Virus record (IMG/VR): IMGVR_UViG_3300028797_000108
Coordinates: 32,001-96,000 of that record
Length of the DNA: 64,000 nucleotides
Strand: one strand, 5' to 3'
Source of the DNA: a virus
Taxonomy: Duplodnaviria > Caudoviricetes
Position 1 is the first letter of the stretch; each line of letters begins with the position of its first letter. The notes under the pieces were generated by a model, which saw only the letters and a program-made list of their open reading frames with translations, was not told where the DNA came from and did not search any database. This document shows, piece after piece, positions 52,477 through 64,000 of the stretch. Made by a program: the position numbers and the translations under genes.

Positions 52477-54450
52477 ATGGCTGAAAAGAACTACTACCTT
52501 GATACAACTGGCATGGCTTGGGAACCCGTCCTCGCACATGCCCGCAACACTATCGCGGAAGCGATGAAAATTCTGCAGCTTGAACCGGCTGCAATGCTTT
52601 ACCTTTCAATTTGTGAAATGGTTCCCATCAATGATAAGGATGTGACGCTGCGTCTTGCGACTGCGAACGCTGGCGGTCAAATTCAGCTCCAGTATAACCC
52701 GTATTGGATTTGCCGTTTGAATGACGCATCCGAATTGGCTTTCGCATTTTTCGGCGAAAGTTTGCGCATCGCCTTGCACCACGCCACTCACCGCCGTGCT
52801 ATGCCGGCTGCGCCGCACAAGTTCGCCTCCGACTTGATTTGCTTTGAAAACCAGAAGCTCTTGTCCAAGTGGCGTTCCGATGTTAAAGAAATTTTGAAAA
52901 ACCTGCCGTCTTACAGTCAGATCGCCCCTGCCATTGAACCGATGGGCTTCAAGAAGCGCGATATGTGGCAGCTTGAAAAGATCCGCGACTACCTGCGCCG
53001 CGTGCAGGAACAAATGCAACAGAAGAAGCAGGGTCAGGGTCAACCCCAGCAGGGTCAAGGCCAGGGCCAGCAGGGCCAGAGCTCCCAAAATCAAAATGGG
53101 CAGGGCCAGCAGTCGCAGCAGGGCCAAGGACAAGGACAACAGCAACAGTCCGGTCAGGGTCAGGGTCAGCAACAGCAGGGCCAAGGACAAGGACAACAGC
53201 AACAGTCCGGTCAGGGTCAGGGTCAGCAACAGCAGGGCCAAGGACAAGGACAACAGCAACAGCAGCAAGGCCAAGGAAACGGCCAAGGCCAACAGCAGCA
53301 GGGTCAGGGCCAGAACGGTCAGCAACAGCAGGGCCAAGGACAAGGTCAGCAGCAGCAAGGCCAAGGACAGGGACAGGGCCAAGGTCAGAACGGCGAAGGC
53401 CAAGATCAAAACGGTCAGGGTCAGGGCCAGGGACAGGACGGTCAGGGTCAGGGTCAAAACGGACAAGGCTCCGGTAACGGCCAAGATCAACAGCAGGGCC
53501 AGAACGGTCAGGGACAAGGTGGCGGCCAAGGCGGCCAGCAGGGTCAAGACCAGGGTCAGGGCGATGACGGTTCTTCCTCGGGTGACCAGGGTGCCAACCA
53601 GGGTGACCGCAGCGATCCGTCCCACGGTTCCAACGGCCTTGACAGCTCGGCAGACTGCGGTGACCTTCGCGGCGACAATGCTCCGAAGAACAGCAGCAAT
53701 GATACGGGCAACGCCTTGAATGAACACTTTGCGGCTGACGAACGCCACGCTCGTAAGGCTACCCAAGAATGGGGTGAAAACACTCTTGTCCAGCAGGAAA
53801 TCCGTAGCATCACCAAGCACCTCGGTTCTAACCCTGAACTTTGGGGTTCCATGCCTGGTGAACTTCAGGAAATGATTCGCCGTGCCAACACGCCGAAGTT
53901 TGACCCGACTCCGATTATCAAGCACTGGAAGCAGACTATTCAGTCTGAAGAATACTATGATACTCGTGCCAAGGCAAACAGACGCCACGGCTTTGACAGA
54001 CCTGGCTGGCGCCACAAGATGAAGAGCTCGATGGTGGAATGCGTGGACGCTTCCGGTTCTATGAGCGACCGCGATGTTGCGGCAGGTGAAGCATTTGTGA
54101 ACCTGTTCATCAAGCACTGCGAAACTTGGTTCTGTTATTGGGACGCTGCCTGCGGTCCGATTGAACCTGTCAAGAAGAAGCGTAAGGGTGACCTCAACCT
54201 CGAGAACATGAGAGGCGGTACCGATCCCCGTTGCATCATTGACAGAATTGAAAAGGAAAGATTGCAGTTCGGCGGTATCTTGGTGTTCACTGACTGTGGC
54301 TTTGACTGGCCGCGTCCGAAGACTAAGTACCTGAACAAGATCTTCATCATCGGCACGGAAAACTGCTGTGCTCCTCCGAGCTGGTGCCGCCACTTCCTGA
54401 ACATCAAGGACATCAAGAAGTGGATGAAGGACCAGAACTTCGAGTTCTAA
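52477..54450 (+). CDS. DUF2201-type peptidase-like N-domain + Gln/Gly linker + vWA domain
   Basis: LQYNP..ELAFAFFGESLRIALHH (degenerate HExxH); MIDAS motifs VDASGSMS, GGTD and VFTD; adjacent to MoxR. Confidence 0.85.
   Translation: MAEKNYYLDTTGMAWEPVLAHARNTIAEAMKILQLEPAAMLYLSICEMVPINDKDVTLRLATANAGGQIQLQYNPYWICRLNDASELAFAFFGESLRIALHHATHRRAMPAAPHKFASDLICFENQKLLSKWRSDVKEILKNLPSYSQIAPAIEPMGFKKRDMWQLEKIRDYLRRVQEQMQQKKQGQGQPQQGQGQGQQGQSSQNQNGQGQQSQQGQGQGQQQQSGQGQGQQQQGQGQGQQQQSGQGQGQQQQGQGQGQQQQQQGQGNGQGQQQQGQGQNGQQQQGQGQGQQQQGQGQGQGQGQNGEGQDQNGQGQGQGQDGQGQGQNGQGSGNGQDQQQGQNGQGQGGGQGGQQGQDQGQGDDGSSSGDQGANQGDRSDPSHGSNGLDSSADCGDLRGDNAPKNSSNDTGNALNEHFAADERHARKATQEWGENTLVQQEIRSITKHLGSNPELWGSMPGELQEMIRRANTPKFDPTPIIKHWKQTIQSEEYYDTRAKANRRHGFDRPGWRHKMKSSMVECVDASGSMSDRDVAAGEAFVNLFIKHCETWFCYWDAACGPIEPVKKKRKGDLNLENMRGGTDPRCIIDRIEKERLQFGGILVFTDCGFDWPRPKTKYLNKIFIIGTENCCAPPSWCRHFLNIKDIKKWMKDQNFEF
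53010..53600 (+). repeat. Gln/Gly low-complexity tract including a 57-bp tandem repeat
   Basis: About 190 aa of QQQGQGQG; 57-nt unit starting at 53116, 53173 and (partial) 53230. Confidence 0.9.
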
Positions 54451-58545: not shown

Positions 58546-58677
58546 CGGGCGATAGTTCAAGCGGTCGGGAATACTTTCCGAGTAAAACAGAACGATCTCA
58601 GACCTTCGTGCTAGGTCGCGAGAAAACACGAAGTTAGGACGATAGACTTCCCTGGGTTCAAGTCCTGGGGCGCTCGC
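58546..58677 (+). ncRNA. tRNA-like RNA with expanded D-loop and anticodon arm
   Basis: Acceptor CGGGCG/CGCTCG, D-stem GTTC/GAAC, T-arm CTGGG-TTCAAGT-CCTGG; extra hairpins inserted in D and anticodon regions. Confidence 0.7.
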
Positions 58678-60153: not shown

Positions 60154-60182
60154 TTGACAGTTCAAAATTAAATTGTTATATT
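60154..60182 (+). promoter_or_regulatory. early promoter
   Basis: TTGACA-N17-TATATT. Confidence 0.85.
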
Positions 60183-60710: not shown

Positions 60711-60909
60711 CTACTGGACAAGATCGCGTCAAACTGAAGAGGATTGTTAGTAGTAGCGAAGTACAAGCTATGAACAGGGTTGCTAGTAGGTTTGATGGCA
60801 ACGCGTGCAGACCCCACCGATGAGGAGGGGTGAACTGCAGAGGAACCCGACCTGGGGGCGCATCGGGGTGAGTCTTGACAATTTGATGAAAGCGAATCAT
60901 CGCAAGTCG

Positions 60910-60987
60910 TTGGATGTAGTTATAAATGGAAAAACAGGGTCCGCTTCGGCGAGCTCATAATTGTGGGTCCGACTCCCACCGTCCGTA
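60910..60987 (+). ncRNA. tRNA-like RNA with anticodon loop replaced by a cUUCGg tetraloop
   Basis: Acceptor TGGATG/CGTCCG; D GTT..AAC; arm GGGT-C-CGC-TTCG-GCG-A-GCTC; T-arm GTGGG-TCCGACT-CCCAC. Confidence 0.75.
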
Positions 60988-61117
60988 AAACGATTCTGTG
61001 AGTAGTCAAAGGGCTAATCTAAAGCTTGCCTCCAATGCGAAAAAAGCTGAGCGTGCCACCGGCGAGCGATGGTGGGGTTACAGCATAACCACAAAGCTGC
61101 ACAATGCAAGATCGCCT

Positions 61118-61199
61118 TCGGCAGATAGTTCAAGCGTAGAACATCGGGTTGTCCCCGAAGATTACTGGGTAAAAGCCAAGGCTACCAGAAGTCACCGAT
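61118..61199 (+). ncRNA. degenerate tRNA-like RNA (5-nt anticodon loop, remodelled T-loop)
   Basis: TCGGCAGA-TA-GTTC-AAGCGTA-GAAC-A-TCGGG-TTGTC-CCCGA ... CTGG..CCAG ... TCACCGA. Confidence 0.55.
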
Positions 61200-61326
61200 T
61201 GTTGCATATCCTGCTTGGGTCGCGGTTGGTCCCGTGAGACTCGCTCAGGCTTGGTTGAAGGTTCAACAAGTAAAAGAGGACTTAGGCTTGCTTGGCGCCT
61301 TAAGCCTAACCAGCACAAGCATTATT

Positions 61327-61400
61327 GGGGTCATAGCTCAATTTGGTAGAGCACTAGCTTTGCAAGCTAGGGGTTCCGGGTTCGAGTCCCGGTGGCTCCA
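61327..61400 (+). tRNA. tRNA-Ala(TGC)
   Basis: Loop TTTGCAA; G3-U70. Confidence 0.95.
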
Positions 61401-61411
61401 CGAAACATTTC

Positions 61412-61773
61412 GGGCTCCCTCCGCCATTTGCAAGTAAGACAAAGAAGGCACGACAAACCGAAAGTAGTTACATTGGTTGCTCTTTGTGGCTGCGATCTTG
61501 GTCCTTCCTAATGAAAGTACCATACAAAGGAGTAGGTAGATCCGTGAAGGAATCGCTCTAAGCTGGAGTAGATCGGATCGGGAATCGCTGAAACGACCGA
61601 AGATGCCTATAACAGAAAGGTTGATGGTGTGCAGCTAGCACTGTCGCTGAAGTAAATGTGCGGCATTGGAAGGATGGAAACGGTGAGGCGGTATACTGAT
61701 GGGACAGGGATAAGCTCCTGACTTTTAGGTATATGTGGTAGCCACTGTGGAGGTTCAAATCCTTCGGTGCCCA
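61412..61773 (+). ncRNA. ~360-nt RNA closed by a tRNA-like acceptor stem and T-arm
   Basis: 5' GGGCTCC pairs with 3' GGTGCCC-A (one mismatch); T-arm GGAGG-TTCAAAT-CCTTC; variable arm GTGG-TAG-CCAC; followed by CTA like the true tRNAs. Confidence 0.65.
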
Positions 61774-61784
61774 CTAATTATTAT

Positions 61785-61858
61785 TGGATTGTAGCTCAGT
61801 TTGGTAGAGCGGTCGGCTGTTAACCGATTGGTCGCAGGTTCGAGTCCTGCCTTTCCAG
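61785..61858 (+). tRNA. tRNA-Asn(GTT)
   Basis: Loop CTGTTAA; two U-U mismatches in the acceptor stem. Confidence 0.9.
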
Positions 61859-61885
61859 CTAAACGCCGATTAGGCAACATTTTCT

Positions 61886-61961
61886 GTGCTATAGCCGTCC
61901 GCAGGAATCGGACGCCGGCAGTCGCCGGAAATCAGTGGTTCAATTCCACTCGTAGCCACCA
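61886..61961 (+). ncRNA. tRNA-like RNA with 4-nt anticodon loop and encoded CCA
   Basis: D CGTCCG-CAGGAAT-CGGACG; arm CCGGC-AGTC-GCCGG; T AGTGG-TTCAATT-CCACT; ends GTAGCCACCA. Confidence 0.75.
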
Positions 61962-62075
61962 AAGGAAATGGCTTGGTTAAGATAACCTCAACATCAAGTA
62001 GCCGAAAGGTGTGGGACACTTGACGATCAGACAACTCGAGTAATGCTGAACGCTTGAGTCCCAGCGCTTTTGATT

Positions 62076-62148
62076 GCCTGTATAGCTCAGCTGGTAGAGC
62101 AGCGGCTTTGTAACCCGCAGGTCGGGGGTTCGGATCCCTCTGCAGGCG
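62076..62148 (+). tRNA. tRNA-Thr(TGT)
   Basis: Loop TTTGTAA. Confidence 0.9.
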
Positions 62149-63314: not shown

Positions 63315-63386
63315 AGCGGGGAGAGGATGGTTCCTCCGCCGGTCTCATAAGCCGTGCTTCTGCAGGTTCGAGTCCTGCCGCCGCTA
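63315..63386 (+). tRNA. tRNA-Met(CAT) with shortened D-arm
   Basis: Loop CTCATAA; T GCAGG-TTCGAGT-CCTGC. Confidence 0.8.
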
Positions 63387-63824: not shown

Positions 63825-63908
63825 GCTTACATGAATCCGAGCGGCAAAGGACGCAGTCTGCAAAACTGCGGGCGAAAGCCTTCGCAGGTTCGAGTCCTGC
63901 TGTAAGCT
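63825..63908 (+). tRNA. tRNA-Cys(GCA) with long variable arm
   Basis: Loop CTGCAAA, U73, variable arm GGC-GAAA-GCC. Confidence 0.85.
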
Positions 63909-64000
63909 CTAATAAAGATAGAGACAGCAAAATTAAATGCTATCCCAAGGCTGAAACGAGGGGTCCGAATCCCCTCATGGAGGTTGGTCTTCCATTCGTC

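What the first reader, a model, noticed from the sequence alone, without database searches (positions are those of the whole stretch)
61412..61773. tmRNA-sized RNA built on a class II tRNA scaffold with a ~270-nt domain in place of the D-arm
Seen: GGGCTCC pairs with GGTGCCC-A, followed by CTA. CCGCC (61421) can pair with GGCGG (~61687), enclosing ~270 nt. This is followed by a TATAC...GTATA arm with an internal CAGG(G)A-TAAGC-TCCTG hairpin, a variable arm GTGG-TAG-CCAC and a canonical T-arm. Established: tmRNA places its insert in the anticodon arm and has G3-U70 and a tag ORF. Here position 3:70 is G-C, the insert is at the D-arm and I found no convincing tag ORF. Inference: an undescribed large tRNA-terminated ncRNA.
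Basis: partly seen in the sequence, partly recalled or inferred. Interest (0 to 1): 0.8.

Follow-up and report, generated by a model that had tools for sequence, protein, structure and literature searches.

The report
Giant tRNA-shaped RNA in rumen phage
Among the tRNA genes of a very large cattle-rumen phage lies a conserved gene for a 362-base RNA that is folded like a long-arm tRNA, carries a ~260-base extra domain in its D-loop, has no anticodon, matches no catalogued RNA family and has no known function.

Summary
Window 61412-61773 is a real structured RNA gene in the tRNA array of an uncultured rumen myovirus (139-kb fragment, CheckV 37% complete).

I found six further variants in related phage and metagenome contigs, each just downstream of a tRNA. 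The acceptor stem, T arm, variable arm and TATAC/GTATA arm all keep pairing through compensatory changes: 98.5% of cells paired against 41-55% in slid controls.

The large domain sits inside the D-loop rather than replacing the D-arm. The 5-bp stem CCGCC/GGCGG, an A14-like A and a G18G19-like GG are kept. The anticodon loop is replaced by an extended hairpin, and no anticodon is conserved.

- **Not tmRNA:** no Rfam or ARAGORN call, G3-C70 in all variants, no conserved tag frame.
- **Not other known families:** no match to group I intron, RNase P, GOLLD, ROOL or YrlA models.
- **Not coding:** no ORF is conserved.

Best reading: a non-decoding tRNA mimic, cut out of the array transcript by the tRNA-processing enzymes, whose D-loop domain is the cargo. 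Its function is unknown.

The scan's earlier notes record a 374-nt look-alike in another genome, and other insertion-bearing tRNA-shaped RNAs in unrelated phages.

The parts
61412..61418 (+). Acceptor stem, 5' strand (GGGCUCC). G1-G3 are invariant.
   Evidence: Pairs with 61766-72. Position 4 goes C-G to G-C, position 5 is U.U, A-U or G-C, and positions 6-7 go C-G to U.G across variants.
61419..61420 (+). CU linker at the place of tRNA positions 8-9. Invariant.
61421..61425 (+). D-stem-like helix P2, 5' strand (CCGCC).
   Evidence: Pairs with 61687-91 and is invariant. In L060 the outer pair is C.A and the next arm gains a pair.
61426..61463 (+). Conserved, mostly unpaired 5' junction of the D-loop domain. 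It starts with an A14-like A and contains AGUAAGACAAAG and GACAAACCGAA.
   Evidence: These blocks are nearly invariant in 6 aligned variants.
61464..61493 (+). Hairpin 1: stem 61464-72 with 61485-93, and a 12-nt loop UUGGUUGCUCUU at 61473-84.
   Evidence: The stem is GUAGUUACA/UGUGGCUGC here and AGCUUCG/CGAAGCU in L059. The loop is invariant in 7 of 7. The L056 type carries a second copy of this loop in its anticodon-like arm.
61498..61508 (+). 5' strand (UUGGUCCUUCC) of a possible 10-bp long-range helix with 61668-78. Unresolved.
   Evidence: Predicted by RNAalifold and RNAduplex at -15 kcal/mol. It is invariant in 5 variants. In L060 both partners of one pair change, C-G to A.C. In L059 the 5' strand is not complementary.
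61509..61528 (+). Most conserved single-stranded block, UAAUGAAAGUNCCAUAYAAA.
   Evidence: Only two variable positions across 7 variants.
61555..61569 (+). Hairpin 2, GCUCU-AAGCU-GGAGU, with an AGCU-containing loop.
   Evidence: One double change and one single change in the stem. Absent from the L059 variant, whose 61529-61600 equivalent is replaced.
61603..61666 (+). Variable subdomain closed by AUGCC 61603-07 with GGCAU 61662-66. It contains hairpin 3.
   Evidence: The G001-type variants close the equivalent subdomain with AGAAGU/ACUUCU instead. This is my own reading of alignments A3 and A5, and the positions are only roughly equivalent.
61623..61645 (+). Hairpin 3: GAUG-[GU]-GUGC, loop AGCUA, GCAC-UGUC.
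   Evidence: C61632-G61638 becomes U-A and G61623-C61645 becomes A-U in the X4 contig variant. L060 has AACGAUAU/AUAUCGUU and the G001 type has UGGG/CCCA. The loop always contains AGCU.
61668..61678 (+). G-rich block GGAAGGAUGGA. It is the 3' strand of the possible long-range helix, or a binding site in its own right.
   Evidence: Identical in 6 of 7 variants, including L059, which lacks the complement.
61679..61686 (+). 3' remnant of the D-loop (AACGGUGA). G61682 and G61683 lie where G18 and G19 of a tRNA would be.
   Evidence: GG-N-G-A directly before the stem is kept in all variants as GGUGA, GGAGA or GGCGA. That this GG contacts the T-loop is inference.
61687..61691 (+). D-stem-like helix P2, 3' strand (GGCGG).
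61692..61733 (+). Anticodon-arm substitute: outer stem 61692-96 with 61729-33, an internal loop, inner stem 61705-08 with 61717-20, and the loop GAUAAGCU at 61709-16.
   Evidence: The outer stem has four sequence versions and the inner stem four. There is no U33 and no conserved triplet. After the insertion is deleted in silico, ARAGORN assigns six different 'anticodons' to the seven variants.
61735..61745 (+). Long variable arm, GUGG-UAG-CCAC (class II-like).
   Evidence: Five different stems at this place: GUGG/CCAC, GGAAC/GUUCC, GUCU-GAAA-AGAC, GUC-GUAA-GAC and GGAGAC/GUCUCC.
61749..61765 (+). T arm, GGAGG-UUCAAAU-CCUUC.
   Evidence: The T-loop is canonical. The stem shows G.U, G-C and A-U changes. 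L059 keeps the stem with a 5-nt bulge.
61766..61773 (+). Acceptor stem 3' strand (GGUGCCC) and discriminator A61773. CCA is not encoded.
   Evidence: A73 is invariant. The trailer CUA(A) is shared with neighbouring tRNAs of these arrays.

Best explanation
This is a gene for a stable, non-decoding, tRNA-shaped RNA of about 362 nt, about 365 nt once CCA is added.

It is probably transcribed with the neighbouring tRNAs from the TTGACA-17-TATATT promoters at 60154 and 60497. Its acceptor/T-arm stack and elbow would make it a substrate for the tRNA-processing enzymes: RNase P would cut before G61412, the 3' end would be cut after A61773, and CCA would be added.

The molecule keeps a complete class II-type cloverleaf frame, meaning an acceptor stem, a 5-bp D-stem, an arm in the anticodon position, a long variable arm and a T arm. 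The anticodon loop is replaced by an extended hairpin. A ~260-nt multi-hairpin domain grows out of the D-loop at the point where tRNAs tolerate extra bases.

My committed reading is that it acts as a tRNA mimic. The frame would recruit proteins that recognise tRNA shape, such as processing enzymes, possibly an anticodon-independent synthetase, or a tRNA-targeting host factor. The D-loop domain would be the cargo that binds something else or other copies of itself. Candidate contact surfaces are its invariant loops UUGGUUGCUCUU, UAAUGAAAGUNCCAUA and GGAAGGAUGGA, and three loops containing the self-complementary AGCU.

What is shown: the gene is real, the frame is conserved by covariation, no anticodon is conserved, and it belongs to no catalogued family. 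What is inferred: co-transcription, the processing sites, CCA addition, and any binding or decoy role.

My rough odds:
- Real RNA gene: 0.95.
- Non-decoding: 0.9.
- Matured by the tRNA machinery: 0.75.
- Acts through tRNA mimicry rather than using the frame only as a processing handle: 0.45.
For: - **Homologues:** six further variants in related rumen phage contigs, one copy per record, always 10-30 nt downstream of a tRNA inside a 29-36-gene tRNA array.
- **Covariation:** present in all four tRNA-type helices and in hairpins 1-3.
- **D-loop remnant:** an A after the 5' strand and GG-N-R-A before the 3' strand, plus invariant G1-G3, A73 and CU at positions 8-9.
- **tRNA shape:** with the insertion removed in silico, ARAGORN calls a full-length tRNA shape in 7 of 7 variants at 90% threshold, but with six different 'anticodons'.
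- **Not coding:** no conserved ORF. The phage's genes mostly use Shine-Dalgarno sites, but none precedes the AUG at 61511.
- **Transcription context:** strong promoter-like sites at 60154 and 60497, none between 60525 and 61412, and no terminator between the element and tRNA-Asn.
- **RNA library:** a 316-nt contig of a relative, lying wholly inside the element, is present in a bovine-gut metatranscriptome library. This is only a weak hint of expression.
- **Neighbours:** the same array holds other tRNA-like RNAs that ARAGORN does not call.
Against: - No transcript ends, no read-level expression data and no aminoacylation data exist. The RNA-library contig could derive from DNA.
- The family is narrow: seven variants from closely related rumen phages. 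No homologue was found in the tRNA array of the clade whose major capsid protein is 66% identical.
- Several inner helices are therefore invariant and unproven.
- The long-range helix fails in L059.
- A minihelix would suffice as a processing handle, so the full cloverleaf argues for mimicry only indirectly.
- No partner protein is identified, and the host is unknown.
Confidence: 0.45

Rival explanations
1. The tRNA frame is only a maturation and stability handle. It lets the tRNA-processing enzymes release and cap the RNA from the array transcript, much as mascRNA is released from MALAT1. The ~260-nt domain is the sole active part, comparable to the large phage RNAs ROOL and GOLLD that also sit in tRNA islands, and it may self-assemble through its palindromic AGCU loops.
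For: - The strongest sequence conservation lies in the inserted domain, not the frame.
- Three hairpin loops keep AGCU while their stems change.
- ROOL and GOLLD are phage RNAs often found near tRNA islands. They form RNA-only cages through intermolecular contacts, and GOLLD can carry covalently linked tRNAs (PMC12286853).
Against: - A handle needs only the acceptor/T minihelix, yet the variable arm, the anticodon-position arm and the D-loop GG are all retained through many compensatory changes.
- There is no match to the ROOL or GOLLD models.
- Oligomerisation is untested.
Confidence: 0.3
2. It is a highly divergent tmRNA-like molecule. It would be charged by an anticodon-independent synthetase, enter stalled ribosomes, and either tag or merely release the nascent chain.
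For: - Its size and layout recall tmRNA: 358-374 nt, with 5' and 3' ends forming a tRNA-like domain around a large structured core.
- A73 and G1-G3 are invariant.
- The class II shape with A73 fits synthetases that ignore the anticodon. That point rests on established knowledge of LeuRS and SerRS and was not tested here.
Against: - No hit to any tmRNA model at E<=10 in three variants.
- ARAGORN finds no tmRNA at default settings. At low threshold it gives only overlapping spurious calls with no recognised tag.
- Pair 3:70 is G-C rather than G.U in 7 of 7 variants.
- The open frame ending in UAAUGA at 61509-14 changes by non-synonymous substitutions that are explained by hairpin-1 covariation.
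- The frame carries an anticodon-position arm and a variable arm that tmRNA lacks.
- No SmpB gene lies in the 139-kb fragment.
Confidence: 0.07
3. It is a class II tRNA gene interrupted by insertions, either a self-splicing or otherwise excised intron in the D-loop or an extra hairpin in the anticodon loop. It would mature into a normal decoding tRNA.
For: Removing the D-loop insertion in silico restores a tRNA-like cloverleaf. Group I introns do occur in bacterial and phage tRNA genes, which is established knowledge.
Against: - No group I or group II intron model hit at E<=10.
- The insertion is in the D-loop, not the anticodon loop.
- The bases flanking the inner hairpin of the anticodon-position arm are not conserved, have no U33, and yield six different 'anticodons'.
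- No joined form appears in four laid runs, though coverage was thin.
- The RNA-library contig retains the inserted region.
Confidence: 0.04
4. It is a decayed tRNA gene that picked up junk insertions and has no function.
For: Phage tRNA arrays turn over quickly, and the flanking tRNAs differ between relatives.
Against: - Pairing is kept by compensatory changes in at least seven helices.
- Stretches of 12-22 nt of unpaired sequence are invariant across relatives whose neighbouring sequence diverges.
- There is exactly one copy in each of the five loci that hold an array.
Confidence: 0.03

Closest known systems
tmRNA (SsrA; Rfam RF00023 and its clan)
   Same: The size is similar, about 360 nt. 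The 5' and 3' ends pair into an acceptor stem with a T arm and A73 around a large structured core. It cannot decode by an anticodon.
   Different: - Pair 3:70 is G-C, not G.U.
- No tag frame is conserved.
- It has an extra arm in the anticodon position and a long variable arm.
- The core is attached through a D-stem-like helix inside the D-loop.
- No covariance-model or ARAGORN match.
Phage T4 RNAC and RNAD ('species 1 and 2' stable RNAs of the T4 tRNA cluster)
   Same: They are non-tRNA stable RNAs encoded among phage tRNA genes, and their function is still unknown (PMC9697503). That they are matured with the tRNAs is my recollection and was not checked here.
   Different: No D-loop domain of this size has been reported for them.
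ROOL (RF03087) and GOLLD (RF01998)
   Same: They are large, elaborately folded RNAs of phages and prophages, often located in tRNA islands. ROOL was first found in rumen metagenomes. GOLLD can carry linked tRNAs (PMC12286853).
   Different: There is no model match. This RNA is smaller. Here the tRNA-like frame is the outer scaffold of the molecule itself.
Class II tRNAs (bacterial Leu, Ser, Tyr)
   Same: A 7-bp acceptor stem, a canonical T arm, a long variable arm, a discriminator base and no encoded CCA, like the array's own tRNAs.
   Different: - No 7-nt anticodon loop.
- A ~260-nt D-loop insertion.
- A 5-bp D-stem.
- CU instead of U8-N9.
- The tRNA model scores 14.8 bits against the 29-bit cut-off.
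- Only the T-loop resembles the phage's own tRNAs.
YrlA (bacterial Y RNA-like, RF02553) and the mascRNA type of tRNA-like modules
   Same: They are non-coding RNAs that use a tRNA-like module for recognition by tRNA enzymes.
   Different: YrlA scored 17.3 bits against 69, over the T arm plus the D arm of the next tRNA. mascRNA scored 19.1 bits against 42.5. The architectures differ.

Membership tests
tmRNA | Match to a tmRNA covariance model or an ARAGORN tmRNA call | tested here: not met
   No tmRNA hit at gathering score or at E<=10 in the window, G001 or L059 variants. ARAGORN at default settings found none. At 80% threshold it gave only overlapping spurious calls marked 'Tag not identified'.
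tmRNA | G3.U70 alanine identity pair | tested here: not met
   G3-C70 in 7 of 7 variants.
tmRNA | Conserved tag reading frame with a resume codon and a stop | tested here: not met
   The frame ending UAA UGA at 61509-14 changes non-synonymously. The AUG frame at 61511 conserves only 6 codons and gives 14-35-aa products. The longest ORFs differ in strand and frame between variants.
tmRNA | tRNA-like domain without an anticodon arm, working with SmpB | tested here: inconclusive
   An arm in the anticodon position and a variable arm are present. There is no SmpB in the 139-kb fragment, but the phage record is incomplete and the host is unknown.
Decoding tRNA | tRNA covariance model above cut-off, or an ARAGORN call | tested here: not met
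   RF00005 matched partially at 14.8 bits against the 29-bit cut-off. ARAGORN made no call, with or without introns allowed.
Decoding tRNA | 7-nt anticodon loop with U33 and a conserved anticodon | tested here: not met
   A 32-nt hairpin insert replaces the loop. The flanking bases are not conserved, and the in-silico calls disagree: ttt, aac, ttg, gga, gat, gtc.
Decoding tRNA | Acceptor stem, T arm and elbow elements | tested here: met
   Covarying 7-bp acceptor stem, 5-bp T stem, UUCRANU loop, and GG before the D-stem 3' strand.
tRNA gene with a group I intron | Group I intron core (P3-P9) detectable, insertion in the anticodon loop, and a spliced form | tested here: not met
   No Intron_gpI hit at E<=10. 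The insertion is in the D-loop. No joints were seen in four laid runs, at low coverage.
ROOL / GOLLD | Match to RF03087 or RF01998 | tested here: not met
   No hit at E<=10. Only the phage tRNA-island context is shared.
RNase P RNA | Conserved regions CR-I to CR-V and the P4 helix; a model match | tested here: not met
   No RNase P hit. GAAAGUCC-like and ACAGAA-like strings are present, but the ACAGAA-like string is not conserved in G001-type variants.
YrlA | Match to RF02553 with a Ro-binding helix | tested here: not met
   17.3 bits against 69, spanning the T arm and the neighbouring tRNA's D arm.
T4 RNAC/RNAD-type stable RNAs | Sequence or structure homology to T4 rnaC or rnaD | not tested
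   I did not look for a model, and no comparison was run. blastn of 61300-62100 against 50,697 phage records matched only the flanking tRNAs.

The most novel reading that the evidence does not exclude
A new class of phage 'tRNA-framed ornate RNA'. The RNA would be a fully L-shaped, CCA-tailed and perhaps aminoacylated tRNA body. Its 260-nt D-loop domain would dock onto a host machine, such as the ribosome, a tRNA-targeting defence nuclease or a synthetase, or would self-assemble through its palindromic AGCU loops. Either way it would display tRNA-like modules as decoys or adaptors during infection. Insertion-bearing tRNA-shaped RNAs noted by this scan in unrelated phages would then be members of one widespread strategy that is not described in the papers I searched.
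Probability: 0.15. Interest if true: 0.85.

Novelty: new variant of a known kind. Interest (0 to 1): 0.62.

Why it matters
Phage tRNA clusters have been known for about 50 years to hold stable RNAs that are not tRNAs, such as T4 RNAC and RNAD, and nobody knows what these do. tRNA islands also harbour the giant ROOL and GOLLD RNAs.

This element links the two themes. It is a complete tRNA cloverleaf used as the chassis for a 260-nt conserved domain, and it lacks an anticodon. It is absent from Rfam and is missed by tRNA and tmRNA finders, so such genes are left unannotated in phage genomes.

If the tRNA frame is used for more than processing, for example for charging, ribosome entry, or decoying tRNA-cleaving defence systems, it would be a new way for phages to exploit the host tRNA machinery. 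It would also give a well-defined, covariation-supported substrate for testing that idea.

The limits are a narrow known distribution, confined to a few rumen phages, and no functional data.

Tried and rejected
- **Known RNA families:** Rfam was searched at gathering score and at E<=10 on three variants. The only weak hits, all far below cut-off, were gyrA RNA at 20-21 of 45 bits (in two of the three variants), PhrS, mascRNA, YrlA, an L2 leader and sX4.
- **Cultured phages:** blastn matched only the flanking tRNAs.
- **Scans that added nothing new:** an exact T-arm/acceptor pattern in viral contigs and the neighbouring 190-aa ORF as a locus probe found nothing, and an 18-mer from the conserved block found only G001 again. 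Two pattern scans of 185,579 prokaryote genomes also found nothing, so no host or prophage copy was seen.
- **More distant clade:** in the clade whose major capsid protein is 66% identical (G002), the 25-tRNA array showed no homologue by T-arm scan or nhmmer.
- **Origin from the phage's own tRNAs:** only T-loop similarity was found.
- **Antisense targets:** the invariant 12-nt loop has no complement with 2 or fewer mismatches in the array, and nothing convincing elsewhere in the 139 kb.
- **tRNA-related enzymes in the fragment:** SmpB, a CCA-adding enzyme, RtcB and RNA ligase were not found, but the record is only about 37% complete, so this says little.
- **Small-ORF reading:** the AUG at 61511 (MKVPYK...) has two variable sites, both at third codon positions. 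It also has no Shine-Dalgarno site although the phage uses them, and the peptide length and sequence are not conserved.
- **Rejected pairings:** ACAAAGA with UCUUUGU is not kept in L059. CAGC/GCUG around hairpin 3 is broken in the X4 variant.
- **Long-range helix:** 61498-508 with 61668-78 could be neither confirmed nor rejected.
- **Laid runs:** parts of the stretch without cover in the RNA runs, and the small word shares of most runs, are not evidence of anything.
- **Full-length covariance model:** not attempted, because about 380 columns exceeds the calibration time limit.
Full report
**Setting.** The window is bases 32001-96000 of a 139,105-base IMG/VR virus record that CheckV rates 37% complete, which implies a genome of roughly 340-375 kb. 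It encodes a portal protein, a major head protein, baseplate proteins and tail fibres, so it is a myovirus. ARAGORN finds 19 tRNA genes at 58.4-63.9 kb of the window and 29 in the whole record. None of them encodes CCA. Runs holding this DNA are bovine and sheep gut or rumen metagenomes.

**The observation.** The finding lies between tRNA-Ala (ends about 61401) and tRNA-Asn (starts 61785), with spacers of about 11 nt on each side. Standard detectors see nothing there:
- Rfam 15 gives no hit at gathering score.
- At E<=10 it gives only a partial tRNA match (14.8 of 29 bits) and a few far-below-threshold hits.
- ARAGORN makes no tRNA or tmRNA call, even with introns allowed.
- The single-sequence folding energy is unremarkable, z = -0.83.

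The case therefore rests on comparison with relatives.

**Relatives.** The major head protein retrieved 40 related viral contigs. One of them, a 184,671-base record (G001), holds a 374-nt homologue. Pattern scans with conserved blocks then found more copies in JGI metagenome contigs and in two further viral records, L059 and L060. A DNA contig in a laid run gave a seventh variant, 96% identical to the window.

The seven variants are 358-374 nt long. nhmmer finds exactly one copy in each locus that holds it (five of them with an array) and in the 139-kb record. Wherever the flank is seen the copy begins 10-30 nt after a tRNA, and ARAGORN finds 29-36 tRNA genes in the three arrays scanned. The preceding tRNA differs between relatives: Ala, Thr, Lys or others. 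No copy was found in cultured phages, in 185,579 prokaryote genomes, or in the tRNA array of the clade whose head protein is 66% identical.

**The tRNA frame is real.** Across the variants the four tRNA-type helices change sequence and keep pairing.

| Helix | Versions seen |
|---|---|
| Acceptor stem | GGGCUCC/GGUGCCC, GGGGACC/GGUCCCC, GGGGUCC/GGUCCCC, GGGCGUU/GGCGCCC |
| Outer stem of the anticodon-position arm | UAUAC/GUAUA, UAUAU/GUAUA, UGCAU/GUGCA, UGCAC/GUGCA, (A)UGCAG/CUGCA(U) |
| Inner stem of that arm | CAGG/CCUG, AUGGG/CCCAU, UUGAG/CUCAA, CUGA/UCAG |
| Variable arm | GUGG/CCAC, GGAAC/GUUCC, GUCU-GAAA-AGAC, GUC-GUAA-GAC, GGAGAC/GUCUCC |
| T stem | G.U, G-C and A-U alternatives; a 5-nt bulge in L059; always a canonical UUCRANU loop |

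On four sequences, 98.5% of 196 cells are paired and 6 pairs show double changes. None of 500 shuffles reaches the observed covariation score, and slid controls give 41-55% paired. G1-G3, A73 and CU at positions 8-9 are invariant.

**Where the big domain sits.** CCGCC/GGCGG is invariant, so it has no covariation. In L060 its outer pair is lost and the adjacent arm gains a pair, which suggests a movable junction. An A follows its 5' strand directly, and GG-N-G-A precedes its 3' strand in every variant. That is the pattern A14 ... G18 G19 N20 A21 of a tRNA D-loop. I therefore read the domain as an insertion into the D-loop of a retained D-stem, not as a replacement of the D-arm. That the GG still docks on the T-loop is inference.

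With the insertion deleted in silico, and an "intron" allowed in the anticodon loop, ARAGORN at 90% threshold calls a full-length tRNA shape in all seven variants. It assigns six different anticodons. The bases flanking the inner hairpin are not conserved and there is no U33. So the RNA has the shape of a class II tRNA but cannot decode.

**The inserted domain.** The following features are supported:
- Hairpin 1 (61464-93) has a completely different stem in L059, but its 12-nt loop UUGGUUGCUCUU is invariant in 7 of 7. The L056 type has copied that loop into its anticodon-position arm in place of the usual (G)AUAAGCU.
- Hairpin 3 (61623-45) has four stem versions, including two compensatory pairs in the near-identical X4 contig variant. 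Its loop always contains AGCU.
- Hairpin 2 (61555-69) also has an AGCU-containing loop.
- The block UAAUGAAAGUNCCAUAYAAA (61509-28) and the G-rich block GGAAGGAUGGA (61668-78) are almost invariant.

One feature is unresolved. A 10-bp helix between 61498-508 and 61668-78 is the best predicted long-range contact. It is invariant in five variants. In L060 it shows a simultaneous C-G to A.C change. In L059 the 5' strand is not complementary although the 3' block is unchanged. Either L059 folds differently, or the G-rich block is conserved for another partner.

Three loops carrying the self-complementary AGCU could kiss each other or loops of other copies. That is speculation.

**Not coding.** The longest open frames differ in strand and frame between variants. 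The frame that ends in UAAUGA changes by substitutions that are explained by hairpin-1 covariation. The AUG at 61511 has no Shine-Dalgarno site, whereas 17 of 29 phage genes have one, and its product is 14-35 aa long with only six conserved codons.

**Expression and processing (inferred).**
- Two strong promoter-like sites (TTGACA-17-TATATT) lie at 60154 and 60497. None lies between 60525 and the element, and no terminator-like site separates it from tRNA-Asn.
- The trailer CUA(A) after A73 is shared with neighbouring tRNAs.
- A 316-nt contig of a relative lies entirely inside the element's boundaries in a bovine-gut metatranscriptome library, and no joints were seen. This is only a weak hint, because contigs show neither ends nor strand and DNA can contaminate RNA libraries.

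**What it is not.**
- *tmRNA.* There is no model or ARAGORN match, pair 3:70 is G-C, no tag frame is conserved, the frame has extra anticodon-position and variable arms, and the fragment holds no SmpB gene.
- *Intron-containing tRNA.* There is no group I or II signature, the insertion is in the D-loop, no anticodon is conserved, and no joined form was seen.
- *RNase P RNA, ROOL, GOLLD, YrlA.* There are no matches.

The tRNA-Tyr of the array is of the bacterial long-arm type. An archaeal host with bulge-helix-bulge splicing is therefore unlikely; this last step is inference from established knowledge.

**Most likely working.** The RNA is co-transcribed with the tRNAs. Its tRNA frame is recognised by RNase P, the 3' processing enzyme and the CCA-adding enzyme, which yields a stable ~365-nt molecule. 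All five helices of a class II cloverleaf and the D-loop GG are maintained, although a minihelix would suffice for processing. For that reason I favour a tRNA-mimic role, engaging tRNA-shape-binding factors with the D-loop domain as cargo, at about 0.45. A pure processing-handle role comes second at about 0.3. A tmRNA-like role (0.07), an intron-bearing tRNA (0.04) and a decayed gene (0.03) are unlikely.

A73 with a long variable arm would suit synthetases that ignore the anticodon. This is a lead from established knowledge, not a result.

**Context and novelty.** The same array holds other tRNA-like RNAs that ARAGORN does not call:
- A 132-nt one with hairpins in the D-loop and the anticodon region (58546-58677).
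- A CCA-encoding one (about 61888-61961).

The scan's earlier, unchecked notes describe the same 374-nt type in another genome. They also describe insertion-bearing tRNA-shaped RNAs in unrelated phages.

In the literature, the nearest things are the T4 RNAC and RNAD RNAs of unknown function (PMC9697503) and ROOL and GOLLD in phage tRNA islands (PMC12286853). Two of my three full-text searches looked for such an RNA and found no description of a tRNA cloverleaf carrying a ~260-nt D-loop domain. I class it as a new variant of a known kind, namely non-tRNA stable RNAs of phage tRNA clusters. It is an uncatalogued family with a narrow known distribution and no functional data.

Noticed in passing
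window 61876-61961: A tRNA-like RNA that ARAGORN does not call. It has the T arm AGUGG-UUCAAUU-CCACU, two further hairpins and a 3' end reading ...CGUAGCC-ACCA. It is the only element seen here with an encoded CCA. Fold z-score is -2.6.
   Followed up: partly
window 58546-58677: A 132-nt tRNA-shaped RNA between tRNA-Leu and tRNA-Arg. It has an acceptor stem, a T arm and a D-stem GUUC/GAAC that encloses an extra hairpin, and the anticodon region is enlarged. The design principle is the same as in the 362-nt element, on a smaller scale.
   Followed up: partly
window 63315-63386: An orphan T arm (GCAGG-UUCGAGU-CCUGC) with a 6-of-7 acceptor stem and a CUCAUAA loop. It may be an uncalled tRNA with a CAU anticodon.
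   Followed up: no
window 63825-63909; also L050 11465-11549 and L059 2719-2807: The tRNA-Cys(GCA) is 85-89 nt long with a long variable arm, which is class II-like and unusual for a bacterial-type tRNA-Cys. It is conserved in three related phages.
   Followed up: no
G000:C1:96458-96533 (458 bases beyond the window end): ARAGORN calls a tRNA with a four-base anticodon (ataa) and undetermined identity. L059 3429-3502 likewise has an undetermined tRNA, with a two-base anticodon call.
   Followed up: no
window 60712-61326: A 615-nt gap without a called tRNA lies between tRNA-Lys and tRNA-Ala, downstream of the 60497 promoter. First-stage notes place further anticodon-less tRNA mimics here, at 60910 and 61118. 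For 60905-60990 the fold shows a T-arm-like hairpin and a cUUCGg-capped arm, but z is only -0.17.
   Followed up: partly
L050 8010-8330 (G001, downstream of its copy): An AT-rich stretch with repeated TTGAAAAA motifs and two TTGAC(A/G)-17-TATATT promoter-like sites directly follows the element. In that phage the element would therefore end a transcription unit.
   Followed up: no
window 52477-54450: A 657-aa ORF with only a weak PHROG HNH-endonuclease match and no Pfam hit. It is shadowed by a 638-aa antisense open frame, and it lies upstream of the tRNA array next to a 415-aa ATPase.
   Followed up: no
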